A stretch of 63,903 nucleotides of DNA, counting the filler, from Nemertoderma westbladi (lineage: Eukaryota; Animalia; Xenacoelomorpha): assembly GCA_032718475.1 (NCBI GenBank). It is 4 parts of 4 records of this genome, joined end to end, with 100 filler letters (N's around TTAATTAATTAA, not from the genome) between each part and the next. Parts side by side here need not be neighbours in the genome. Positions count along the whole stretch, not along the records: positions 1 to 16,635 come from JAUCBJ010001611.1; 3 more parts are not named here. The stretch is one strand, 5' to 3'. The notes beneath the pieces were generated by a model, which saw only the letters and a program-made list of their open reading frames with translations, had not been told where the DNA came from and did no database searches. Positions 5,446 to 58,982 of the stretch are shown in pieces (within the stretch, counting starts at the first letter, position 1; each line of letters begins with the position of its first letter). The translations under genes and the position numbers were made by a program.

Positions 5446-6257
5446 TATTGTTGATAAAGGGACAAACGTAGCCAATTATTTTCATTATATGGTATTTTAT
5501 TTGGTGAGCAAGCGGATAATTATTTATAACTATCCTTAATTATATTAGAAAGTTACATTTGAATTTATCTCTCTCTATTACAATGTATATTTTACAATAT
5601 ATGTTTAAGGACATGGGGGGTGGTTGGCGACTCGCACTCGCATCAGCAGATGATAGTGGCAATGGTGGAATTGGTCTATTGATGAATCCAACTGCACATG
5701 CAGCATTGGACACAATAGACCAAATTTCTAACCGCATCATCCATTGCCACTTCTCATGTTCTGGAAGACTGGCTAAGAAGTTTCTTAAGGTGGATCTGAT
5801 TGTGTGCTACTTTCCAACTAGTGTTGCCCCTGTAGAGGAGGTGGAAAATTTCTACCACAATCTACAAGCAGCTACTGATGAAGTGGATCAGCATGCATTC
5901 TTAACATTCCTGGGAGACTTTAATGCAAGTCTGCATCAATCACCTACATCGCCCTGGGTCTATAGCGATTGTGTTAACCGAAATTCCGTCCATCTTTATG
6001 ATTTTATTTCTGCAAATGGATTGTTTTCGGCTGGTACCCATTTCAAGAGGCGAACTGGAAAGCCATGGACTCATAGTGGACCCAGTGGTCACAAGTCACA
6101 GATAGACCCTATTCTGTTTCGTAGGAAATATAGGAGCTCTCTACAAGACTGTAATGCATTTACACTTCGACCCTTCTCCAGTGATGACCGCCTTATTGTG
6201 GCCAAGGTAAGACTTAGTCTGCGTGCTAGCAGAACAACGAAATCTACCTTGCTGCGG

Positions 6258-6579
6258 CATTTATTATAGGATGGGATCTAGGGGTCTTAACCTCAAATGA
6301 TAAGTTTATTTTACCGAAAATAACTTATCTTTTATTGGCGCAATTGTAGGACTAATCCCATCACATGCGTACTTTTTAACTGGGTATTGTACAAATTTAG
6401 GAATCGCGTAATTTTTCTTAAAATTAATATATCATATCTCTCCAAACCACGTACGCGTTTCGACCTTACTGGGTCTCATCAGCGTGGTGTCGGATTCGAA
6501 CCTGGGACCTCGAGGTGGAAGCCGAGACTACAACCACTAGGCCACAGGTTCTTGAGATATGGACTATTAATTTCAAAGC
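6258..6579 (-). mobile_element. tRNA-promoter/hammerhead-ribozyme element, copy 1, inserted in the RTE LINE
   Basis: Reverse complement of 11521-11829 at high identity; A box TGGCCTAGTGG (6534-6544), B box GGTTCGAATCC (6492-6502), hammerhead at 6446-6488. Confidence 0.88.
6446..6488 (-). ncRNA. Minimal type-I hammerhead ribozyme
   Basis: Minus strand ACCACG-CTGATGA-GACC-cagtaa-GGTC-GAAA-CGCG-TA-CGTGGT: 6-bp stem I, complete core, 4-bp stem II, palindromic ACGCGT stem III region, GUA cleavage triplet. Confidence 0.88.
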
Positions 6580-8856
6580 GTATGAGGTTCTTGCCTCTGA
6601 GGCAGCAGATCACCGTGAGGGCTATACTGCCTTCACAGAAGCAGTTAAGTTAGCAGCTGCAGAAACAGTTCCTGTATACCCTCGAAACAGAAAAAGGGCC
6701 CCCTGTACTGACAACAAAATTCAGAAGTGCCGGAATGACCTCTATAATGCGCAGAAAGAGTCCCGACTCAAACAGACTACAGCGGCCAAGAATGCAGTTA
6801 AGGCTGCATCTAGGTCCCTGAACAAGCAGTACTCTGTTAATCTGCAGGAGCTAATAAACCAACAGGTTGATGCCATCAATGATGCTGACAACATCAGACA
6901 ATCATCCCAGGCATGGAAATCGATCAACTTGCCTACTGGGCAGAAAAGCCTACCAACCTCCAAGGTTAAGGCAGAATCACCAGCCGATTGCCTCAATGGT
7001 TGGAAGGCCCACTTTAAAAACCTCCTCAATAATGACAAGGTATTGCCTGGTAACTTTATAGAAGTAAAAGTGTCCGAGTCTGTACTTCCAGATATTCCCA
7101 CTGGCGATATCTCCTTCGCAGAAGTGAAGGCTGCTGCAAAGAGCATTAAGACCAATCGTGCCAGTGGAGTAGATGGTGTTCCCCCTGAGGTCTTTAAAAA
7201 ACCCGAGTGTTTAAAGCTCATCTATCCCATCATAGTAGACATGTACAGAACAACAAGAGTCCCACAAGAAATGAAAACAAATAAGTTGGTGCCAGTTCCC
7301 AAGAAGGGCAACCTAACACTCTATGGTTCTTTTCGGGAATCTCATTAATCTCGATTGCTGCAAAGCTATACAATAGAATTCTATTAAATCGCATCAGGGA
7401 TCCCATTGAGAGACTGCTCCGTGGAAATCAGAATGGGTTCTGTAAAGGTCATGGGACCATGGAGCCCATTTTGGCACTTAGAAGGATAATTGAAGAGTTA
7501 TCAAAAAAGAAAGAGAGGCATCTGTCTGTTATCTTTGTTGACTTCTTCAAGGCCTTTGATTCAGTCTCTCGCTCACGTATGTTCAGCATACTTTCATTAT
7601 ATGGGATTCCTGATGAAATTATTGCAGCAATCAGATCAGTATACGATGGTTCGCAACATTTGTGTCTACTGTTGATGGTGACACAGAACCATTTGAAGTG
7701 TTATGGGGCGTCCTCCAGGGAGACACACTTGCACCATTCTTGTTCATAATTGTGGTTGACTATGTTCTATGCATGTCCTTAGATCATCATAATGATGATG
7801 GGGTGATGATAACTCCACCTACTGGCTCCAGAAGTCGAGGAAATCCTCCCAAGTACCTAACTGATCTAGACTTTGCTGATGACTTTGGAGTACTCTCAGA
7901 ATCACTAGAGGGAGCCCAACGGCTCCTCAGCTCATTAGAACATGCTGCTTCTAGTGTTGGTCTTTTTATTAACTCCAGAAAGACCAAAAATTTTGACAGT
8001 TAACTTTGAAAGTTCCTCAGCAAGTCTCTGATCGGATGAGCATAAGCTCAAAGGATGGTATGCTTGAGCATGTTGATGACTTCTGTTACCCGGGATCATG
8101 GATCCGGAAGTCAGGTGAGGACCCAGGATTTGGAAGTCACCGCGAATTAATCGGAAACTTAAGGTCCGATTATTTAGAGCAGCAGTAGTTCCAGTACTCC
8201 TCTATGGGAGTCCATGCTGGGCTCTAACTGCTGAGGACACCAAATCTCTGGATGGCACATTCACAAGAATGCTACGCCGGGTTCATTGTGTCAAGTACAA
8301 TGCCCACATCTCCAACCAGAAACTATATAACATTGGATGTGTCTCATTGGTTCCCCCAAGCTTGACACTAGAACAAAATCGCCTCCACTTTGCAGGACAT
8401 TGCTTTCGCCGTGAGGACCAGCCAGTGCATAATCTTGTGCTTTGGCAGCCTCATGGAGTGAATAAGCATGGTGGACAGCCCATGACTTTCTTGAGACGCA
8501 TCTTAAAGGACACTGGCCTTGAAGATGCGGATGATCTAGCAAATGTCATGGGTGATAGGGAGTTGTGGCGGCGCAATTTTGTCGACAAGCCAGCACAGCA
8601 TTATTAAAAATGCAGCTGCAATGCAGCATCCCGATCCTAGTAGTAGTAGTAGTACAATGTATATTCTATATAGTTAGGCCTACTGAAAGTTATAATTCGC
8701 GTCAGTATACCATAGTTACAATACCTGTACTGGTATGGTACCTGTACATGTAATTAAATTAGATTCTTTAATTCGGTTCAGAGTACAGGAACTCATTTCA
8801 TTTTCTGATAAATAGGTTCCATAAAAGATCAAGTTAGTTAGTTATTATATTTACAG

Positions 8857-9656: not shown

Positions 9657-10496
9657 GGCACTCTTACAGTTTGCCGTGCCACCTATTGCTATAATGGCAC
9701 GGTAAAGTGTAATAGGACTGAGGAGCTCTCTTACAGTTTGCCGAGCCACCTATATATTCAATATAATAAATATATAAATAAAAAAAATATAAATTATAAG
9801 TAATTAAACAGGACTAAGGATGATCCAACTCTATAGCAAATGGAGCGGAAAAAATGAATCATCCTTAGTTGGATCATCCTTAGTCCTGTTTAATTACTTA
9901 TAATTTATACAATCTATGGATGTTAATTAAACACATATACAATAAAAAAAATATAATTGTTATAATTATATAATATATATTTACGCAAGTGATACCGTAA
10001 TTTACTCGACGTACAATTACATTTTGTTACGTCTTGTGTAGCTAATGTTTTTATTGTTTGTTACTAAACCGGGTACACTTCCTTCTAGTTTCCCTAATTA
10101 TGATATGATAGATTAAAAACTATCATTTTATTATATCAAAAAATTGCAAAATGGCAAGCTAGCTAGTTTTTGTTTCTTGTTTTTTAAATGTTCTAGAACA
10201 TTATCAATCCATTTCATATAAAAATGTTGTTCTAGAACAAATATTTTTTGTTCTAGAACAAAAAATACAAAGCACTAGCTAATTTGTTAATTTTTTATTC
10301 TATGTTATCTTTGTATGAATTTTTTATACTAGCTATTTTTTGTTTCTTTTTTTAATGTTCTAGAACATATTATATATACATTTAATATAAGAATTTTGTA
10401 CTAGAACAAATATTTTTTGTTGTAGAACAAATATTTTAAGATCATTTTATTATATCAAAATATGGCTATAATGGCACGGTAAAGTATAAGAGTCCC
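9657..10496. mobile_element. Non-autonomous DNA transposon (MITE) with ~25-bp imperfect TIRs, preceded by a TIR-only mini-copy
   Basis: CTCTTACAGTTTGCCG(T/A)GCCA at 9661 and 9728 versus TGGCACGGTAAAGTATAAGAGTCCC ending 10496; internal ~42-bp inverted repeat (~9789-9830/9867-9908); the right end recurs inverted at 30186-30259. Confidence 0.7.
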
Positions 10497-11520
10497 ATAG
10501 ATTCCTACCTGCAGTTGTTGGCGGCTCAATCACAACCTCCGAATGTCAGCTATTCAGCCTCTCCCCGCAACGTGGTTGACTTGGCCTCTGAATCCAGATT
10601 GTCAAATCCACGGCTTCCTACGCAGTTTCTGCTGCTGGATCCCATTTTCTTTGTAGGGAGATTGCTGGAGAGGTTGACTTCAATCTAACGGTTCATGGGG
10701 AATGTTTGGCGAGAGCAAAGAAAGTGGAGAGACTTGCAAGGAAGGAATTGGTGACAAAGTTGTTTGTGGAAGTGCTGGATGGAATGTCTGAAGTAAGAGT
10801 CCGGACTGTCTGTAGAGTGGCCGAATTTAAAATTGGTAGCTGGACCTCGTTGCAGATCGTATATCTGCATGACCTCGCAGTACGACCTCTCAACCCAAGA
10901 GTTTAGTGATGCAATTTCAGTGCAGTATGGCAGACTCCTCCTTGGAGTACCAAGTTGTTGTGATGGAAGTGGTGTGGGGCCCCATTCAATTTAAACCATG
11001 GTTTAAAATTCAAGAAAGGTGGCCTCGTAATTCAGCGCCATAATGAACTGCATGATACCATGGGTGATATGGCAAGTCTGGCATTCGGACTCCAACATGT
11101 CATATGGGAACCAGTTGTTCGGGAGCAACTAGAGGTTAGCGATGAATCCGGACTACACTGTGATGTGGGGATAAGGGGAGCATTCAATGTGCAGACTCAG
11201 GCATTGATTGGCATTAAGTCAACCAACCTTGACGCCGAGTCATACTTGAATCGCTCTCCCATGTCCATGCTCGAAGTTGCAGTGGAGGAGAACTGCTGCA
11301 CTGCTTTACACTTCTTTACATTGTGGTGGTGACTTCACCCCCTTTCTGTCTTCTTGTGACAAAGTCAAGGCCCCACAAGCCAACAGACTGCTCCATATAA
11401 TTACCACATGTCTAACCCACTATTGGAGTAAACCTTACTCAACAGTAATGGGTTGGGTCCGAGCGCGACTCATGTTCGCCATCATCCGTGAGACGACTGA
11501 TTGTATGAAAGGGCTGACTG
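10497..11520 (+). mobile_element. Degraded CRE-like non-LTR retrotransposon 3' part (zinc knuckle + restriction-like endonuclease)
   Basis: Frameshifted motifs KKGGLVIQRHNELHD, WEP, GLHCDVGIRG, DAESY, FTPF and WSKPYSTVMGWVRARLMFAIIR, typical of the C-terminus of metazoan CRE-clade elements. Confidence 0.72.
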
Positions 11521-11829
11521 GCTTTGAAATTAATACTCCATATCTCAAGAACCTGTGACCTAGTGGTTGTAGTTTCGGCTTCCACCTCGAATCCGACACC
11601 ACGCTGATGAGACCCAGTAAGGTCGAAATGCGTACGTGGTTTGGAGAGATATGAGATATTAATTTCAATAAAAATTACGCGATTCCTAAATTTTACACTA
11701 ACCCCGGTTAAAAAGTACGCATGTGATGGGATTAGTCCTACAATTGTGCCAATAAAAGATAAGTTATTTTCGATAAAATAAACGTATCATTCGAGGTTAA
11801 GACCCCTAGATCCCCTCCTATAATAAATG
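11521..11829 (+). mobile_element. tRNA-promoter/hammerhead element, copy 2 (B box deleted)
   Basis: Matches 6258-6579 inverted; a 14-nt deletion between TCGA direct repeats removes most of the B box. Confidence 0.88.
11598..11640 (+). ncRNA. Minimal type-I hammerhead ribozyme, copy 2
   Basis: ACCACG-CTGATGA-GACC-cagtaa-GGTC-GAAA-TGCG-TA-CGTGGT; one C>T change in stem III relative to copy 1. Confidence 0.8.
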
Positions 11830-12185
11830 TATAATAACAAACACCTCGAAAAATACAGCTTGCCAACACAATGTTATCGGAAATAATAACACAATATTAT
11901 AAGAATAAATCACATGCATCAGGTGATTTGGTTGTATTCAAAGTGCCATATCTTTAAAATTATAACAGGTATATAAATAAACCGATTCCAGTTTTGAATT
12001 CAGCATAAGATTCTGCATCAGAAAAATGTAAAAAAAATAGAAAAAATTTAGATTTTTGCCATACTTCATTTGCCAAAACCTAATCAACCAAAACTCCCCT
12101 TAATGTCGCAATCAAAGACATACTACATACGTTTTCGAGTTACTGTAGTTGGATACATTATAATTTCGTTCTCTCTTTGGGACTT

Positions 12186-18619: not shown

Positions 18620-19890
18620 ACTACTACTACTAGGATCGGCATGCTGCATTATAGCTGGATTTGTAAGAATGCTGTGCCGGCTTGTTGACAAAAATTGCAC
18701 AGCCACAACTCCCTATCACCCATGACATTTTCTAGATCATCCGCATCTTCAAGGTCAGTGTACTTTAAGATGCCTCGCAAGAAAGCCATGGGCTGTCCAC
18801 AATGCTTTTTCTACGGAAGCCCATATCGGCCATGTCGCGCGCAAACTTCCATGTCAAGCGCGCATTAACGTTATGCCATTTCAGTGTAGAAACATTTGCG
18901 CGCGCGACAAGAAAGTTTGCGCGCGCGACATGGGGAAGGACATAACGGCCATGTCGCGCACGAACTTCATGTCATTTCCGTTTGGAATTTTGTCTGGGCG
19001 GGAAATTTGAATTTAGATGTCCTGCTGTTTGACTGTAATGCGAACCCCTGAACAGGAATAGGCCTGCTATAGCCGTATGCCGTATAGGCTCTCTGCTACT
19101 CTCACACTGACTGTACAACAATACCTTACACTGCAGCACTGCTAAGCTACTGCTAGTCTATCAGTATGTCAGATACTTAAGCTGCTGAACTGTATTCCTC
19201 CTGCATTACTAACAGCTGAACAACAGTAGGTCACATAAATTCAAATTTGCGCCCAGACATAATTCAAAAAATTACATTAAGTTTGCGCGCGACTTGGCCG
19301 TTATGGGTTTCACCATGTCGCGCGCGCAAACTTCCATGTCGCGCGCGCAAACTACCATGACGCGCGCGCAAACTACCATGACGCGCGCGCAAACTTTCAT
19401 GTCGCGCGCGCAAATGTTTCTACACGGAAATGGCATAAACTTTGCGCGCTTGACATGGAAGTTTGCGCGCGACATGGCTGTTATGGGCTTCCGTATTATT
19501 CACTCTATGAGGCCGCCAAAGCATACGATTATGCACTGGCTGGTCCTCACGGCGAAAGCAATGTCCTGCAAAGCGGAGGCGACTTTTTTCTAGTGTCAAG
19601 CTTGGGGGAGCAAATGAGACACCTCCAATGTTATATAGTGTCTGGTTGGAGATGTGAGCATTGTACTTGACACAGTGAACCCGGCGTAGCATTCTTGTGA
19701 ATGTGCCATCCAGAGATTTGGTGTCCTCGGCAGTTAGAGCCCAGCATGGATTCTGTACCTTAATAGAGGTCATTTCGGCACTTCTGACTTTTGTGGTCAG
19801 TCCAGGGGGCCTTTTTCCTGTTTCGAGGGTATGCAGGAACGGTTTCTGCAGCTGCTAACTTAACTGCTTCTGTGAAGGCAGTATAGCCTC
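18620..19890 (-). mobile_element. Internally deleted copy of the RTE-like LINE, split by a MITE
   Basis: Inverted match to the LINE 3' end including the (TAG)n tail (18620-18810, 19496-19750), then a jump to sequence matching ~6620-6740. Confidence 0.85.
18814..19493. mobile_element. Tc1/mariner-type MITE (TA target duplication) nested in the LINE copy
   Basis: TA|CGGAAGCCCATA...TATGGGCTTCCG|TA; long imperfect TIRs with CATGTCGCGCGCGCAAACT subrepeats. Confidence 0.85.
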
Positions 19891-20049
19891 GCCTAATTTA
19901 AAAAATTAATTTAAGTCGCGTCACAGACTTGTAATTTTCCAGTAACTGCTTCTGTGAAGGCAGTATAGCCTCGCCTAATTTAAAAAATTATTTTAAGTCG
20001 CGTCACAAATTTGTAATTTTCCAGCCAACAAGTAAACATAGGCCAGCGC

Positions 20050-20804: not shown

Positions 20805-22964
<2,160 letters not shown>

Positions 22965-33139: not shown

Positions 33140-33239
33140 NNNNNNNNNNNNNNNNNNNNNNNNNNNNNNNNNNNNNNNNNNNNTTAATTAATTAANNNNN
33201 NNNNNNNNNNNNNNNNNNNNNNNNNNNNNNNNNNNNNNN
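33140..33239. other. Artificial contig linker
   Basis: N44-TTAATTAATTAA-N44. Confidence 0.97.
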
Positions 33240-36419: not shown

Positions 36420-36926
36420 TCAGGTGAGACTATAGAAATATATTTGTCAGATTTGACGTGGATGTTATTGTTGACGGGAATAAAACCGTCAGATATCCAT
36501 AAAAAGGATCCAATTCTTAAATGTCAATTGATATACGGTTTACCTCCAGACGTAAGCAATAAATTAGTCACTATGACCTCGACAGAGGATTCAGTTATGA
36601 GTGTCGAAGATCTAGTCCAGAAGGCGAGGAGGATAGTAGCGAGCCGAAGTGTGATCGAGAAGTTTGATTTTCCGGTTGGGGCGTTGAGAGGTAAAGCGAG
36701 TAACATTGAACATCGTGTGCCATCTAGCGGTTATCGGACGAAGAGTAAACCAAAAGGCATGTTGCCTTACAATACAAATGCGGAAATCAAAAGGTCATAT
36801 CGCTTCCAGGTTACGCTTCAACCTAGGCTTAATATTATATCAACCAATGGTGTATCAGTAGATGCTATTTTGTTAATAATTAATTGTTCAATGAAATGTG
36901 ACGAATACGTAACAGTAGATAATTAA
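36420..36926 (+). pseudogene. Retrotransposon Gag capsid-like fragment (Ty3/Gypsy-like)
   Basis: SGETIEIYLSDL..ILKCQLIYGLPPDV..SVEDLVQKARRI resembles the GE..Y..L..F..GL..L..A capsid C-terminal pattern. Confidence 0.5.
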
Positions 36927-38240
36927 ATTGGTGCTACAGTAGATAATTCCATTAATGCTACAGTAGATAATTAAATAGGTGCTACAGTAGATAATTCCAT
37001 TGGTGCTACAGTAGATAATTCCATTAATGCTACAGTAGATAATTCCATTAATGCTACAGTAGATAATTCCATTGGTGCTACAGTAGATAATTCCATTGGT
37101 GCTACAGTATATAATTCCATTAATGCTACAGTAGATAATTCAATTTGTGCTACTGTAGATAATTCCATTGGTGCTACAGTAGATAATTCCATTAATGCTA
37201 CAGTAGATAAATCAATTTGTGCTACTGTAGATAATTCCATTGGTGCTACAGTAGATAATTCCATTAATGCTACAGTAGATAATTCCATTGGTGCTACAGT
37301 AGATAATTCCATTGGTGCTACAGTATATAATTCCATTAATGCTACAGTAGATAATTCAATTTGTGCTACTGTAGATAATTCCATTGGTGCTACAGTAGAT
37401 AATTCCATTAATGCTACAGTAGATAATTCAATTTGTGCTACTGTAGATAATTCCATTGGTGCTACAGTAGATAATTCCATTAATGCTACAGTAGATAATT
37501 CAATTTGTGCTACTGTAGATAATTCCATTGGTGCTACAGTAGATAATTCCATTAATGCTACAGTAGATAATTCCATTGGGGCTACACTAGATAATTCCAT
37601 TGGTGCTACAGTAGATAATTCCATTGGTGCTACAGTAGATAATTCCATTAATGCTACAGTAGATAATTCAATTTGTGCTACTGTAGATAATTCCATTGGT
37701 GCTACAGTAGATAATTCCATTAATGCTACAGTAGATAAATCAATTTGTGCTACTGTAGATAATTCCATTGGTGCTACAGTATATAATTCCATTAATGCTA
37801 CAGTAGATAATTCCATTGGTGCTACAGTAGATAATTCCATTGGTGCTACAGTAGATAATTCCATTAATGCTACAGTAGATAATTCCATTGGGGCTACACT
37901 AGATAATTCCATTGGTGCTACAGTAGATAATTCCATTAATGCTACAGTAGATAATTCCATTGGTGCTACAGTAGATAATTCCATTAATGCTACAGTAGAT
38001 AATTCCATTGGTGCTACTGTAAATAATTCCATTAATGCTACAGTAGATAATTCCATTGGTGCTACAGTAGATAATTCCATTGGTGCTACAGTAGATAATT
38101 CCATTGGTGCTACAGTAGATAATTCCATTGGTGCTACAGTAGATAATTCCATTGGTGCTACAGTAGATACTTCCATTGGGGCTACACTAGATAATTCCAT
38201 TGGTGCTACAGTAGATAATTCCATTGGTGCTACAGTAGAC
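36912..38240. repeat. 24-bp tandem array (~55 copies)
   Basis: Unit GCTACAGTAGATAATTCCATT(GG/AA)T; no frame-breaking indels (the minus-strand frame is open 36971-38242). Confidence 0.97.
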
Positions 38241-38244
38241 AAAG

Positions 38245-39495
38245 GTGGGAGAGGTCGTCAAGTTTAATGGAGATGAGATGAAATGGTTACCTTTTAATGA
38301 ATATTATAAAGATAACATACAGAACTCTGTACTATCTAACGGAGAGAAACTTAGATTCCTCATCGAGTGCTTGGAAGGACCTCCCAAGTTAATGGTGTTA
38401 AAGTTTATTGGACATCCAGATGGATTAAGACAAGTTTGGGATACACTAAAAATCAGGTATGGTAATAGGACTAACATAGCTAGGTATTTATATGCGAAAT
38501 TAGTAGCGCCCCGAAAGTTTCTTAGCAGCGGGATTATAGAGTTTTCCGATGAGATTCAGGAGATCTGTAGACAGCTAGATTGGTTAGGTAAGTCTCAGGA
38601 ATATCAGAGTTCTATGGTTGTTGGAGCCGTAGCATCTACTTTGCCAAAAGGTGGAGTAGGTACTCGTTGGGACAAAAGGGTTCTCTATATGATGGACCAG
38701 CAACAAAGAGACCCTACCATGGCTGATCTCATGTCATTCTTAAATGGAGAGGTAAGATTACAGCTCCTAAAGCAGTCCAGAGAGAAGACACCGGAAAGTA
38801 AGGTGAGTGAAAAACCCATTTCTAGGAGAAAAGTAACACCAGTGTGTTATACAGACGACGGCGAAAGCCAAACCTCATACGAGGAAAACAGCGGTAAGGA
38901 CACCAAAAGATCTTATTATGTCAATAAAACGAGAAAAGACATAAGTAAATCTAAGTCTCGAACCAGTGACAGGAGAGAACAGGTAACAACTCCTCCTACG
39001 TCTCCTAAGAGAATTCATGGAAGAAAGCCCGAGGAAAGAACAAGTTTGCACAACACCACACAGGTTAAAGTAAGTAACATCAAATCCAAATGTGCATTGT
39101 GCGACGGGCCCCATCGCTTGAGTGGGTGTGATGAATTCTTGAAGAAATCCCTTAAAGATAGACGTGATGTCATGTGGGATAAGCGGTTGTGTTATAATTG
39201 CCTCAGACGAGGACACCAACGGCGGACCTGTTACTCAGACGCGAGGTGTGCTAAGTGTGGCGCGAAACATCATATCTTGCTGCACACCGAATTTGACAGA
39301 ACCCGCACGAGTCAGGTAAGTGAGCCCGAACTACATGTCCAATTCAGTGATGTGAACGACACTGACCACAGCTCTGAGATGGAAGGATTCTACACGGACG
39401 AATTCTCCAACAAAAATGAATCCTGTTATATGATAAACACCGCTGTGTATCGAGAGCTTTCGTACGAGACTGAATCGGAAATGGAAGATCCTTGA
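38245..39495 (+). CDS. gag: BEL/Pao Gag (5' end missing or disrupted)
   Basis: KFNGD..WLPF..EKLRFL..L..RYG (DUF1759-like) and the BEL triple knuckle CALCDGPHRLSGC / CYNCLRRGHQRRTC / CAKCGAKHHILLH. Confidence 0.9.
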   Translation: MGEVVKFNGDEMKWLPFNEYYKDNIQNSVLSNGEKLRFLIECLEGPPKLMVLKFIGHPDGLRQVWDTLKIRYGNRTNIARYLYAKLVAPRKFLSSGIIEFSDEIQEICRQLDWLGKSQEYQSSMVVGAVASTLPKGGVGTRWDKRVLYMMDQQQRDPTMADLMSFLNGEVRLQLLKQSREKTPESKVSEKPISRRKVTPVCYTDDGESQTSYEENSGKDTKRSYYVNKTRKDISKSKSRTSDRREQVTTPPTSPKRIHGRKPEERTSLHNTTQVKVSNIKSKCALCDGPHRLSGCDEFLKKSLKDRRDVMWDKRLCYNCLRRGHQRRTCYSDARCAKCGAKHHILLHTEFDRTRTSQVSEPELHVQFSDVNDTDHSSEMEGFYTDEFSNKNESCYMINTAVYRELSYETESEMEDP

Positions 39496-53345: not shown

Positions 53346-53961
53346 CGTAGCTAGATTTCAGTCATCCCCTTTGTCAGTTTTAGACCATTTTTTATCAAAT
53401 AAACGTTATTAACCAGTTCTTATTTTATATGCTGTCACGGGGAAACTGAAACGGGCGATTCATTATTTGGTAAGTACTAAGTACAGTATATCGATAGTGA
53501 AAGGATACATACAGTATCTTGAAATCTTGTACGTATCTTGACGTATTGTCTGATGCCTTTGCAGTGGTTGATTGCTTACCCGTCGCCATACCTACGACGC
53601 CGTCTCCTATTTAGCAGCAATCTCGTTGAAGTACAATGGCATCTGCTCCTGCTCTAGTTGATAATACAGGTTCATGATTCGAACTGTGATGGACCTGGGA
53701 CCTGAACTTCATAGCTGTTGAGTTGACGTTAGACTTATAATTGAAGGGAAGCCAAAAAAAGAAGTATACAACTGTAAAGTTAGTAAAATTACACCCTTAA
53801 CACACCCATGTTTATCATTATTCGGAGGGAGATGCTCACAGCAATAACGATCACTCATATAGTGGCAACCAACAGTAGCGGCCATTAAAAACCGATCAAA
53901 CAACAACCACACCATTTGAACTTTCCCCGAAGGATACTATATGATTCTGTGTAACATATTA

Positions 53962-54245
53962 TTACTACTACTACTAGGATCGGCATGCTGCATTGCAGCT
54001 GCATTTTTAAGAATCATGTGCCGGCTTGTCAACAAAATTGCACCGCCACAACTCCCTATCACCCATGACATTTGCTAGATCATCCGCATCTTTAAGGCCA
54101 GTGTCCTTTAAGATGCGTCTCAAGAAAGTCATGGGCTGTCCACCATGCTTATTCACTCCATGAGGCTGCCAAAGTACAAGATTATGTACTGGCTGGTCCT
54201 CACGGCGAAAGCAATGTCCTGCAAAGCGGAGGCGATTTTGTTCTA
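53962..54245 (-). mobile_element. 5'-truncated RTE-like LINE 3' end with (TAG)n tail
   Basis: Inverted high-identity match to ~8369-8650. Confidence 0.9.
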
Positions 54246-58882: not shown

Positions 58883-58982
58883 NNNNNNNNNNNNNNNNNN
58901 NNNNNNNNNNNNNNNNNNNNNNNNNNTTAATTAATTAANNNNNNNNNNNNNNNNNNNNNNNNNNNNNNNNNNNNNNNNNNNN
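58883..58982. other. Artificial contig linker
   Basis: N44-TTAATTAATTAA-N44. Confidence 0.97.

What the first reader, a model, noticed from the sequence alone, without database searches (positions are those of the whole stretch)
11521..11829. Ribozyme-element boundaries do not fit ordinary SINE retrotransposition
Both copies share ~28 nt upstream of the predicted Pol III start and ~190 nt downstream of the ribozyme. Neither has a poly-A or microsatellite tail or a visible target duplication, and both sit in or at the edge of LINE remnants (RTE-like and CRE-like). A plain SINE cannot copy sequence upstream of its own start site. Inference: mobilisation from a circular or multimeric RNA template, a Penelope-type mechanism, or a DNA-level mechanism. 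Copy 2 lost its B box by a 14-nt microhomology deletion but kept the ribozyme core.
Basis: partly seen in the sequence, partly recalled or inferred. Interest (0 to 1): 0.7.

Follow-up and report, generated by a model that had tools for sequence, protein, structure and literature searches.

The report
Partial copies of tRNA-headed hammerhead retrozyme
The two inserts are pieces of a 411-base, high-copy animal repeat that also occurs head-to-tail and carries a tRNA-like promoter followed by a predicted self-cutting RNA; they have no target duplication and were likely copied from a multi-unit or circular RNA, as proposed for known repeats such as schistosome Sm-alpha.

Summary
The two copies are real (6258-6579 minus, 11521-11829 plus; 293 of 307 aligned bases identical). 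The family carries Pol III A/B boxes followed by a type I hammerhead; the 14-nt B-box deletion is private to the second copy. Contigs of public runs show that the second copy spans 11518-11876 and that the family continues past both ends. Three of four runs show a head-to-tail joint with a 38-40-nt A-rich linker, giving a 411-nt unit. Both window copies are partial monomers that span the predicted cleavage site. No TSD was found. The first copy replaced 65 bp of its host LINE (empty site seen) with 3-nt microhomology. The second cuts a CRE-like ORF about 20 codons before its end. A plain SINE, a segmental duplication, a solo LTR and a canonical Helitron do not fit. It is a new member of a known kind: an Sm-alpha-like non-LTR retrozyme. 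Copying from multimeric or circular RNA by a retrotransposon RT (Penelope-like most likely) is inferred; capture of array DNA at breaks is not excluded. Expression and cleavage are untested.

The parts
11518..11876 (+). Copy B: 359-nt partial monomer of the 411-nt unit (the finding, extended)
   Evidence: Summed family depth 1e5-8e5 in X1 in the bins 11518-11885 against 25-146 outside; loose ends place the edges at 11518 and 11876; left junction held with 0 differences in X1 and X3, right junction with 1 difference in X1
6258..6579 (-). Copy A: 322-nt partial monomer; 6258-6260 is shared with the target (3-nt microhomology at the 3' end)
6534..6544 (-). Pol III A box, copy A (copy B 11556-11566, one private change at 11558)
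   Evidence: Recalled consensus matched; family has G at 11558 in 560,727 of 561,004 summed depth in X1
6493..6501 (-). Pol III B box, copy A; removed in copy B by a 14-nt deletion at 11587-11590
   Evidence: only A+B pair in the window, 0.1 expected from 100 block shuffles
6441..6494 (-). Type I hammerhead, copy A; predicted cleavage 6452/6451 after GUA; helix III is a 6-nt palindrome
11592..11645 (+). Type I hammerhead, copy B; predicted cleavage 11634/11635; private change at 11629 weakens the helix III palindrome
11523..11669 (+). About 24-bp inverted repeat (11523-11546 with 11646-11669) closing a long hairpin round the tRNA-like part and ribozyme; copy A 6577-6554 with 6440-6417. Both 5' ends lie at its base
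   Evidence: z -4.1; z -2.3
11767..11770 (+). T4 run present in both copies (copy A 6320-6317), possible leaky Pol III terminator; both 3' ends lie downstream of it
   Evidence: no difference listed there in the rows shown
11830..11876 (+). A/C-rich (70%) 3' stretch of the unit, present in copy B, absent from copy A
5520..8660 (+). Broken APE-endonuclease/RT LINE that hosts copy A; 65 bp of it are missing between 6260 and 6580
   Evidence: Pfam Exo_endo_phos (weak), RVT_1, DUF6451; empty-site joint in X1 and X4
10493..11517 (+). Broken C-terminal part of an RT-encoding non-LTR ORF (CRE-like, label recalled), ending at copy B about 20 codons before the ends of its homologues
11875..12022 (+). 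Low-copy repeat right of copy B, overlapping it by 2 nt
   Evidence: records 8 and 25

Best explanation
The two inserts are partial monomers of a high-copy 411-nt repeat that also occurs head-to-tail and carries Pol III A/B boxes followed by a predicted type I hammerhead, and they were likely copied by a borrowed retrotransposon reverse transcriptase from an uncleaved multi-unit or religated circular RNA. Shown: the unit, its head-to-tail joint, the boxes, the ribozyme core, no TSD, a 65-bp target loss at copy A. Inferred: transcription from one unit's promoter reads through the T4 run and the linker into the next unit, so sequence 'upstream' of +1 is simply the tail of the previous unit. Inferred: the palindromic helix III favours cleavage by paired ribozymes in multimers, giving monomers that can circularise. 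Inferred: reverse transcription starts internally in the A/C-rich 3' stretch or the A-rich linker, passes the intact cleavage site and the promoter, and stops near the base of the 24-bp hairpin; the second end is joined with loss of target DNA. The most likely partner is a Penelope-like element (about 0.4 overall; untested), a LINE the next.
For: Head-to-tail joints in 3 of 4 runs: X3 11877 to 11519 with 38 letters between, X5 11876 to 11518 with 40, and an X4 441-nt contig that closes on itself with 39 (same contig). Family-wide conservation of A box, B box and catalytic core; changes that weaken them are private to copy B. Both copies span the predicted cleavage site, so a cleaved linear monomer cannot be their template. 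Empty site of copy A: joint 6260 to 6580 with 65 other letters in one contig each of X1 and X4, with concordant loose ends in 41+36 contigs of X1 and 18+17 of X3. Two opposite-strand joints (11551/11766, 11637/11776), each in X1 and X3, as for inverted truncated copies of Penelope-like elements (PMC8557442 passage). Same architecture described for Sm-alpha (PMC6765202 and PMC2770079 passages) and for non-LTR retrozymes (PMC7229834). Internal RT initiation in an AC-rich stem-loop, with unprocessed RNA as substrate, shown for a Penelope-like element (PMC11167929).
Against: Near-equal 5' ends with different 3' ends is the reverse of ordinary target-primed insertion; only two copies could be read base by base. 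Target loss, short microhomology and no TSD also fit capture of array DNA at a double-strand break. PMC7229834 says TSDs are sometimes present at animal retrozymes; none is present here. No Penelope-like partner was looked for outside the window and none was recognised in the 13 window ORFs scanned. The ribozyme scores below Rfam's cut-off and has only a 1-nt bulge in helix I. The tRNA-like part is not recognised by ARAGORN or Rfam. The inverted joints would also arise by LINE twin priming (recalled) or by repair.
Confidence: 0.65

Rival explanations
1. The family is a ribozyme-bearing satellite whose dispersed pieces spread as DNA: fragments or circles excised from tandem arrays are captured at double-strand breaks by end joining or template switching.
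For: No TSD, 65-bp target loss, 2-3-nt microhomologies and partial units are typical of break repair (established knowledge). Many internal skips among copies (table 5).
Against: Both 5' ends fall within 3 nt (1.7% if uniform on 411 nt; n = 2). Many X3 contigs leave the unit just inside the A-rich linker (27 contigs, median loose length 255, agreement 0.5), which suggests a preferred 3' end. Promoter and ribozyme are conserved across the family.
Confidence: 0.2
2. Non-autonomous rolling-circle DNA element (Helitron/Helentron type) that carries a tRNA-ribozyme cassette.
For: Tandem units, no TSD, a 5' inverted repeat, internal hairpins and near-constant 5' ends fit such elements (recalled). A CTAG lies 13 nt behind an internal hairpin.
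Against: Neither copy has TC...CTRR ends on either strand, neither ends at that CTAG, and no subterminal inverted repeat was found between the first 60 and last 110 nt of copy B. Target loss is not expected of Helitrons (recalled).
Confidence: 0.07
3. Ordinary LINE-dependent SINE with an unusually long 5' leader and an A-rich tail in the linker; tandem joints are secondary dimers and both window copies are eroded.
For: Many contigs seem to end about 12 nt into the A-rich linker (32 in X1, 27 in X3), which could be a tail.
Against: The family extends 50 nt or more upstream of tRNA +1; the joint has the same 38-40-nt linker in three runs; no TSD; an internal ribozyme would cut the promoter off a monomeric transcript.
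Confidence: 0.08

Closest known systems
Schistosoma Sm-alpha / Sj-alpha SINE-like repeats
   Same: tRNA-derived Pol III promoter followed by a type I hammerhead, in tandem; the promoter ends up at the 3' end of the cleaved monomer (PMC6765202, PMC2770079, PMC8490949: passages read; Ferbeyre 1998 not held).
   Different: Unit 411 nt against 335 bp. Sm-alpha is linked to tRNA-Gln-TTG; here the anticodon-like loop reads TCC and the T arm is cut off by the ribozyme. A 24-bp inverted repeat encloses promoter and ribozyme. Sequence homology to Sm-alpha and the host's phylum were not tested.
Metazoan non-LTR retrozymes (coral, mussel, axolotl, Xenopus)
   Same: 150-450-bp tandem unit with a type I hammerhead, GC under 50%, no LTR/PBS/PPT, dispersed monomers, self-paired RNA (PMC7229834 parts 2-4; bioRxiv 10.64898/2026.07.22.740005 parts 1-3).
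   Different: Those papers, in the parts read, describe no internal tRNA-type promoter and no target deletions; circRNA expression is shown there and untested here.
Non-autonomous Penelope-like elements / pLTRs
   Same: Head-to-tail partial tandems, inverted truncated copies, alternative 3' ends, hammerhead upstream of the RT start sites (PMC8557442 passages; PMC11167929 parts 1-2).
   Different: The ribozyme here has the canonical geometry (6-bp helix I, 4-bp helix II, palindromic helix III), not the minimal PLE form (PMC4209133 passages). The two 3' ends are 47 nt apart against a 30-40-bp tail. No homology to a PLE was tested.
Helenus (tRNA-containing TRIMs)
   Same: tRNA-like promoter with sequence copied from upstream of it (PMC10886601 passages).
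   Different: No TG...CA ends, no TSD; a ribozyme is present.

Membership tests
Non-LTR retrozyme | Type I hammerhead core with helices I and II | tested here: met
   below the Rfam gathering score but all core bases present
Non-LTR retrozyme | Head-to-tail unit of 150-450 bp | tested here: met
   411-nt unit; joint in X3, X4, X5. Array length unknown
Non-LTR retrozyme | No LTR ends, non-coding, GC under 50%, high copy | tested here: met
   (summed depth about 10^4 times the flanks; not a copy number). PBS/PPT judged by eye only
Non-LTR retrozyme | Expressed as linear and circular RNA | tested here: inconclusive
   No RNA holder listed; the self-closing contig is from a run whose RNA status is a guess and which also holds the flanking LINE
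Non-LTR retrozyme | Self-cleavage in vitro | not testable with these tools
   needs transcription assay
Sm-alpha-type element | Pol III A and B boxes upstream of the hammerhead | tested here: met
Sm-alpha-type element | Sequence homology to Sm-alpha, tRNA-Gln origin | not tested
   no Sm-alpha sequence was available from a tool; tRNA identity unresolved
Canonical SINE | 5' end at the Pol III start | tested here: not met
   28-31 nt upstream in the copies, more in the family
Canonical SINE | Target site duplication and tail | tested here: not met
   no TSD; 65-bp loss at copy A. Other copies could not be read
Non-autonomous Penelope-like element | 3' similarity to an autonomous PLE pLTR | not testable with these tools
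   no genome held
Non-autonomous Penelope-like element | Two 3' ends 30-40 bp apart; inverted truncated copies | tested here: inconclusive
   ends 47 nt apart in two copies; two opposite-strand joints
Helitron/Helentron | TC...CTRR ends or subterminal inverted repeats | tested here: not met
   both copies are partial, so the family's own ends were not seen
Solo LTR / TRIM (Helenus) | TG...CA ends with short TSD | tested here: not met

The most novel reading that the evidence does not exclude
An independently evolved, Pol III-driven retrozyme whose genomic footprints (internal 3' starts in an A/C-rich stretch, stops at the base of an RNA hairpin, target loss without TSD, inverted truncated copies) record Penelope-type reverse transcription of a circular or multimeric RNA. 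It would give the first insertion-site evidence, in the searches run, for how animal retrozymes integrate.
Probability: 0.3. Interest if true: 0.6.

Novelty: new member of a known kind. Interest (0 to 1): 0.36.

Why it matters
The architecture is known from Sm-alpha and animal retrozymes, so the odd boundaries are explained. Which enzyme mobilises animal retrozymes, and from which RNA form, is still stated as unresolved in the papers read. A high-copy family that lands in high-copy LINEs gives empty sites for free, so the integration signature can be measured genome-wide. If the host is not a trematode, the tRNA-promoter/hammerhead fusion arose at least twice.

Tried and rejected
No whole genome is held, so copies were studied only through contigs of four public runs; those tables are cut (20 of 876 loose-end rows and 15 of 69 joints shown; 18 of 430 and 15 of 26). 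No RNA holder listed; X4's RNA status is a guess, so it was not used for expression. X1 may be the sample behind the window. Pattern scans found nothing in metagenome contigs or prokaryote genomes; one unrelated phage hit in viral contigs. ARAGORN and Rfam find no tRNA. Segmental duplication rejected: identity stops sharply and flanks are unrelated. The idea that 19890-20020 is the missing linker was dropped: its letters differ from the linker. No empty site for copy B appeared in the rows shown. A word-based protein search for the CRE-like fragment found nothing; the HMMER search did. The protein atlas did not answer. Ferbeyre 1998 is not held. PMC9977147 (passages) gave no usable PLE target-deletion data. 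Earlier findings: none. Seven paper searches listed no tRNA-headed hammerhead repeat other than Sm-alpha/Sj-alpha; subscription papers, Repbase and the bioRxiv supplements were not seen and may hold one.

Full report
Observation. A self-comparison of the window finds exactly one other copy of 11521-11829, at 6258-6579 on the minus strand: 293 of 324 columns identical, 17 gap positions, unrelated flanks. I call them copy B and copy A. In ribozyme sense each reads: 28 nt, a tRNA-like stretch, a hammerhead, about 185-190 nt. Copy A has an A box (6544-6534) and a B box (6501-6493); this is the only such pair in the window, against 0.1 expected from 100 shuffles (box patterns recalled). ARAGORN and Rfam do not call a tRNA, so tRNA origin rests on the boxes and an anticodon-like arm. 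The hammerhead matches Rfam HH9 below its cut-off (28.2 bits, E 2.2e-5), but has the full core, a 6-bp helix I with an extension, a 4-bp helix II and a 6-nt palindrome in place of helix III. That is the canonical metazoan type I form that cleaves as a dimer (PMC4209133, passages). A 24-bp inverted repeat encloses promoter and ribozyme. No TSD is found at either copy.

The real unit. No genome is held, so I laid contigs of four public runs on each copy. On copy B the summed depth is 1e5-8e5 in X1 across the element and 25-146 outside, with edges at 11518 and 11876. Beyond the 5' ends the contigs agree on one continuation (19 contigs, agreement 0.87 in X1; 17 contigs, 0.76). Three of four runs join the 3' end back to the 5' end: X3 with 38 letters between, X5 with 40, and one 441-nt contig of X4 that closes on itself with 39. 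The unit is 411 nt (441 minus the 30-nt overlap). X3 and X5 are listed as probably DNA, so head-to-tail copies likely exist in the genome; array lengths are unknown. In X1 no such joint is among the rows shown. The B-box deletion, the A-box change at 11558 and the helix III change at 11629 are private to copy B; the family keeps all three features.

Insertion sites. Copy A interrupts an endonuclease/RT LINE. Contigs without the insert join 6260 to 6580 with 65 other letters (one contig each in X1 and X4; concordant loose ends in 41 and 36 contigs of X1, 18 and 17 of X3). The insertion thus came with a 65-bp loss, and the last 3 nt of the copy coincide with the target. Copy B follows the C-terminal part of an RT-encoding non-LTR ORF: 460 relatives at E up to 0.001, RVT_1 hits in 3 of 8 scanned, only one above the cut-off. 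Alignments of 11 of 16 relatives stop at 11513, about 20 residues before the end of most of them. The host's 3' end is missing there, which suggests target loss again, but no empty site was seen. A different low-copy repeat begins at 11875. Across the family, ends look heterogeneous (hundreds of loose-end rows, most not shown). One cluster lies about 12 nt into the A-rich linker (32 contigs in X1, 27 in X3). Two loci join truncated copies on opposite strands, each in X1 and X3.

Mechanism. In a tandem unit, sequence upstream of +1 is the tail of the previous unit, so a read-through transcript contains it. Both copies keep the predicted cleavage site (6452/6451; 11634/11635) intact and end downstream of a T4 run. 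Their template was therefore not a cleaved linear monomer nor a terminated Pol III transcript. An uncleaved multimer or a religated circle fits; these data cannot tell the two apart. Internal priming is shown for a Penelope-like RT, in an AC-rich stem-loop and on unprocessed RNA (PMC11167929, parts 1-2 of 4); the stretch between the two 3' ends here is 70% A+C against 53% for the rest. That parallel is a lead, not a test. The near-equal 5' ends (1.7% by chance, n = 2) lie at the base of the long hairpin and are not explained; a structure-dependent stop is my guess. Capture of array DNA at breaks gives the same junctions and keeps 0.2. Helitron, solo LTR and segmental duplication fail their tests.

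Comparison. Sm-alpha and Sj-alpha are tRNA-derived, Pol III-type repeats with a downstream hammerhead, found in tandem and cut from multimers (PMC6765202, PMC2770079, PMC8490949: passages; the 1998 original is not held). Animal non-LTR retrozymes are 150-450-bp tandem units expressed as circles and proposed to use Penelope-like enzymes (PMC7229834, parts 2-4 of 6 and passages; PMC7761336, passages; bioRxiv 10.64898/2026.07.22.740005, parts 1-3 of 5, supplements closed). Partial tandems, inverted truncated copies and a 30-40-bp tail are PLE features (PMC8557442, passages). The element meets the sequence-level criteria of a non-LTR retrozyme and works like Sm-alpha; homology to Sm-alpha, expression, cleavage and the partner were not tested.

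Verdict. A real feature with corrected boundaries; a new member of a known kind. The added value is the measured insertion footprint. Interest 0.36.

Noticed in passing
L001:1423-1480: Phage contig with a 13-tRNA cluster in which a hammerhead-like core lies directly behind tRNA-Gln (Rfam Hammerhead_3 24.5 bits, E 0.002, below cut-off). Unrelated to the animal element; helix I is unclear.
   Followed up: partly
window:11810 and 6277: A subfamily diverges here (16 contigs in X3, 12-14) but keeps the following TATAATAAA motif; another set diverges at 6416, upstream of the shared 3' part.
   Followed up: no
window:11800-11810: The C4 stretch is complementary by eye to the G4 stretch in the linker seen; it could pair across the unit joint in a circular or multimeric RNA. 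Not computed.
   Followed up: no
window:38239-44066: Long gag-like and pol-like frames resembling a BEL/Pao LTR retrotransposon (label recalled, not tested).
   Followed up: no
window:16636-16735, 33140-33239, 58883-58982: Three N44-12mer-N44 joins, apparently assembly linkers; the window is stitched from four pieces.
   Followed up: no
window:18620-20427 and 53954-54245: Further rearranged fragments of the LINE that hosts copy A, including an 82-nt tandem duplication at 19861-20024 and an inverted-repeat insert at about 18812-19495.
   Followed up: partly
window:22072-22924: 373-nt arms, 99% complementary, 107 nt apart, next to an alpha-tubulin-like frame at 20805-22058; possibly a young foldback or MITE.
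   Followed up: no
window:30714-33000 and 36900-38300: Tandem arrays of 32-nt and 24-nt units.
   Followed up: no
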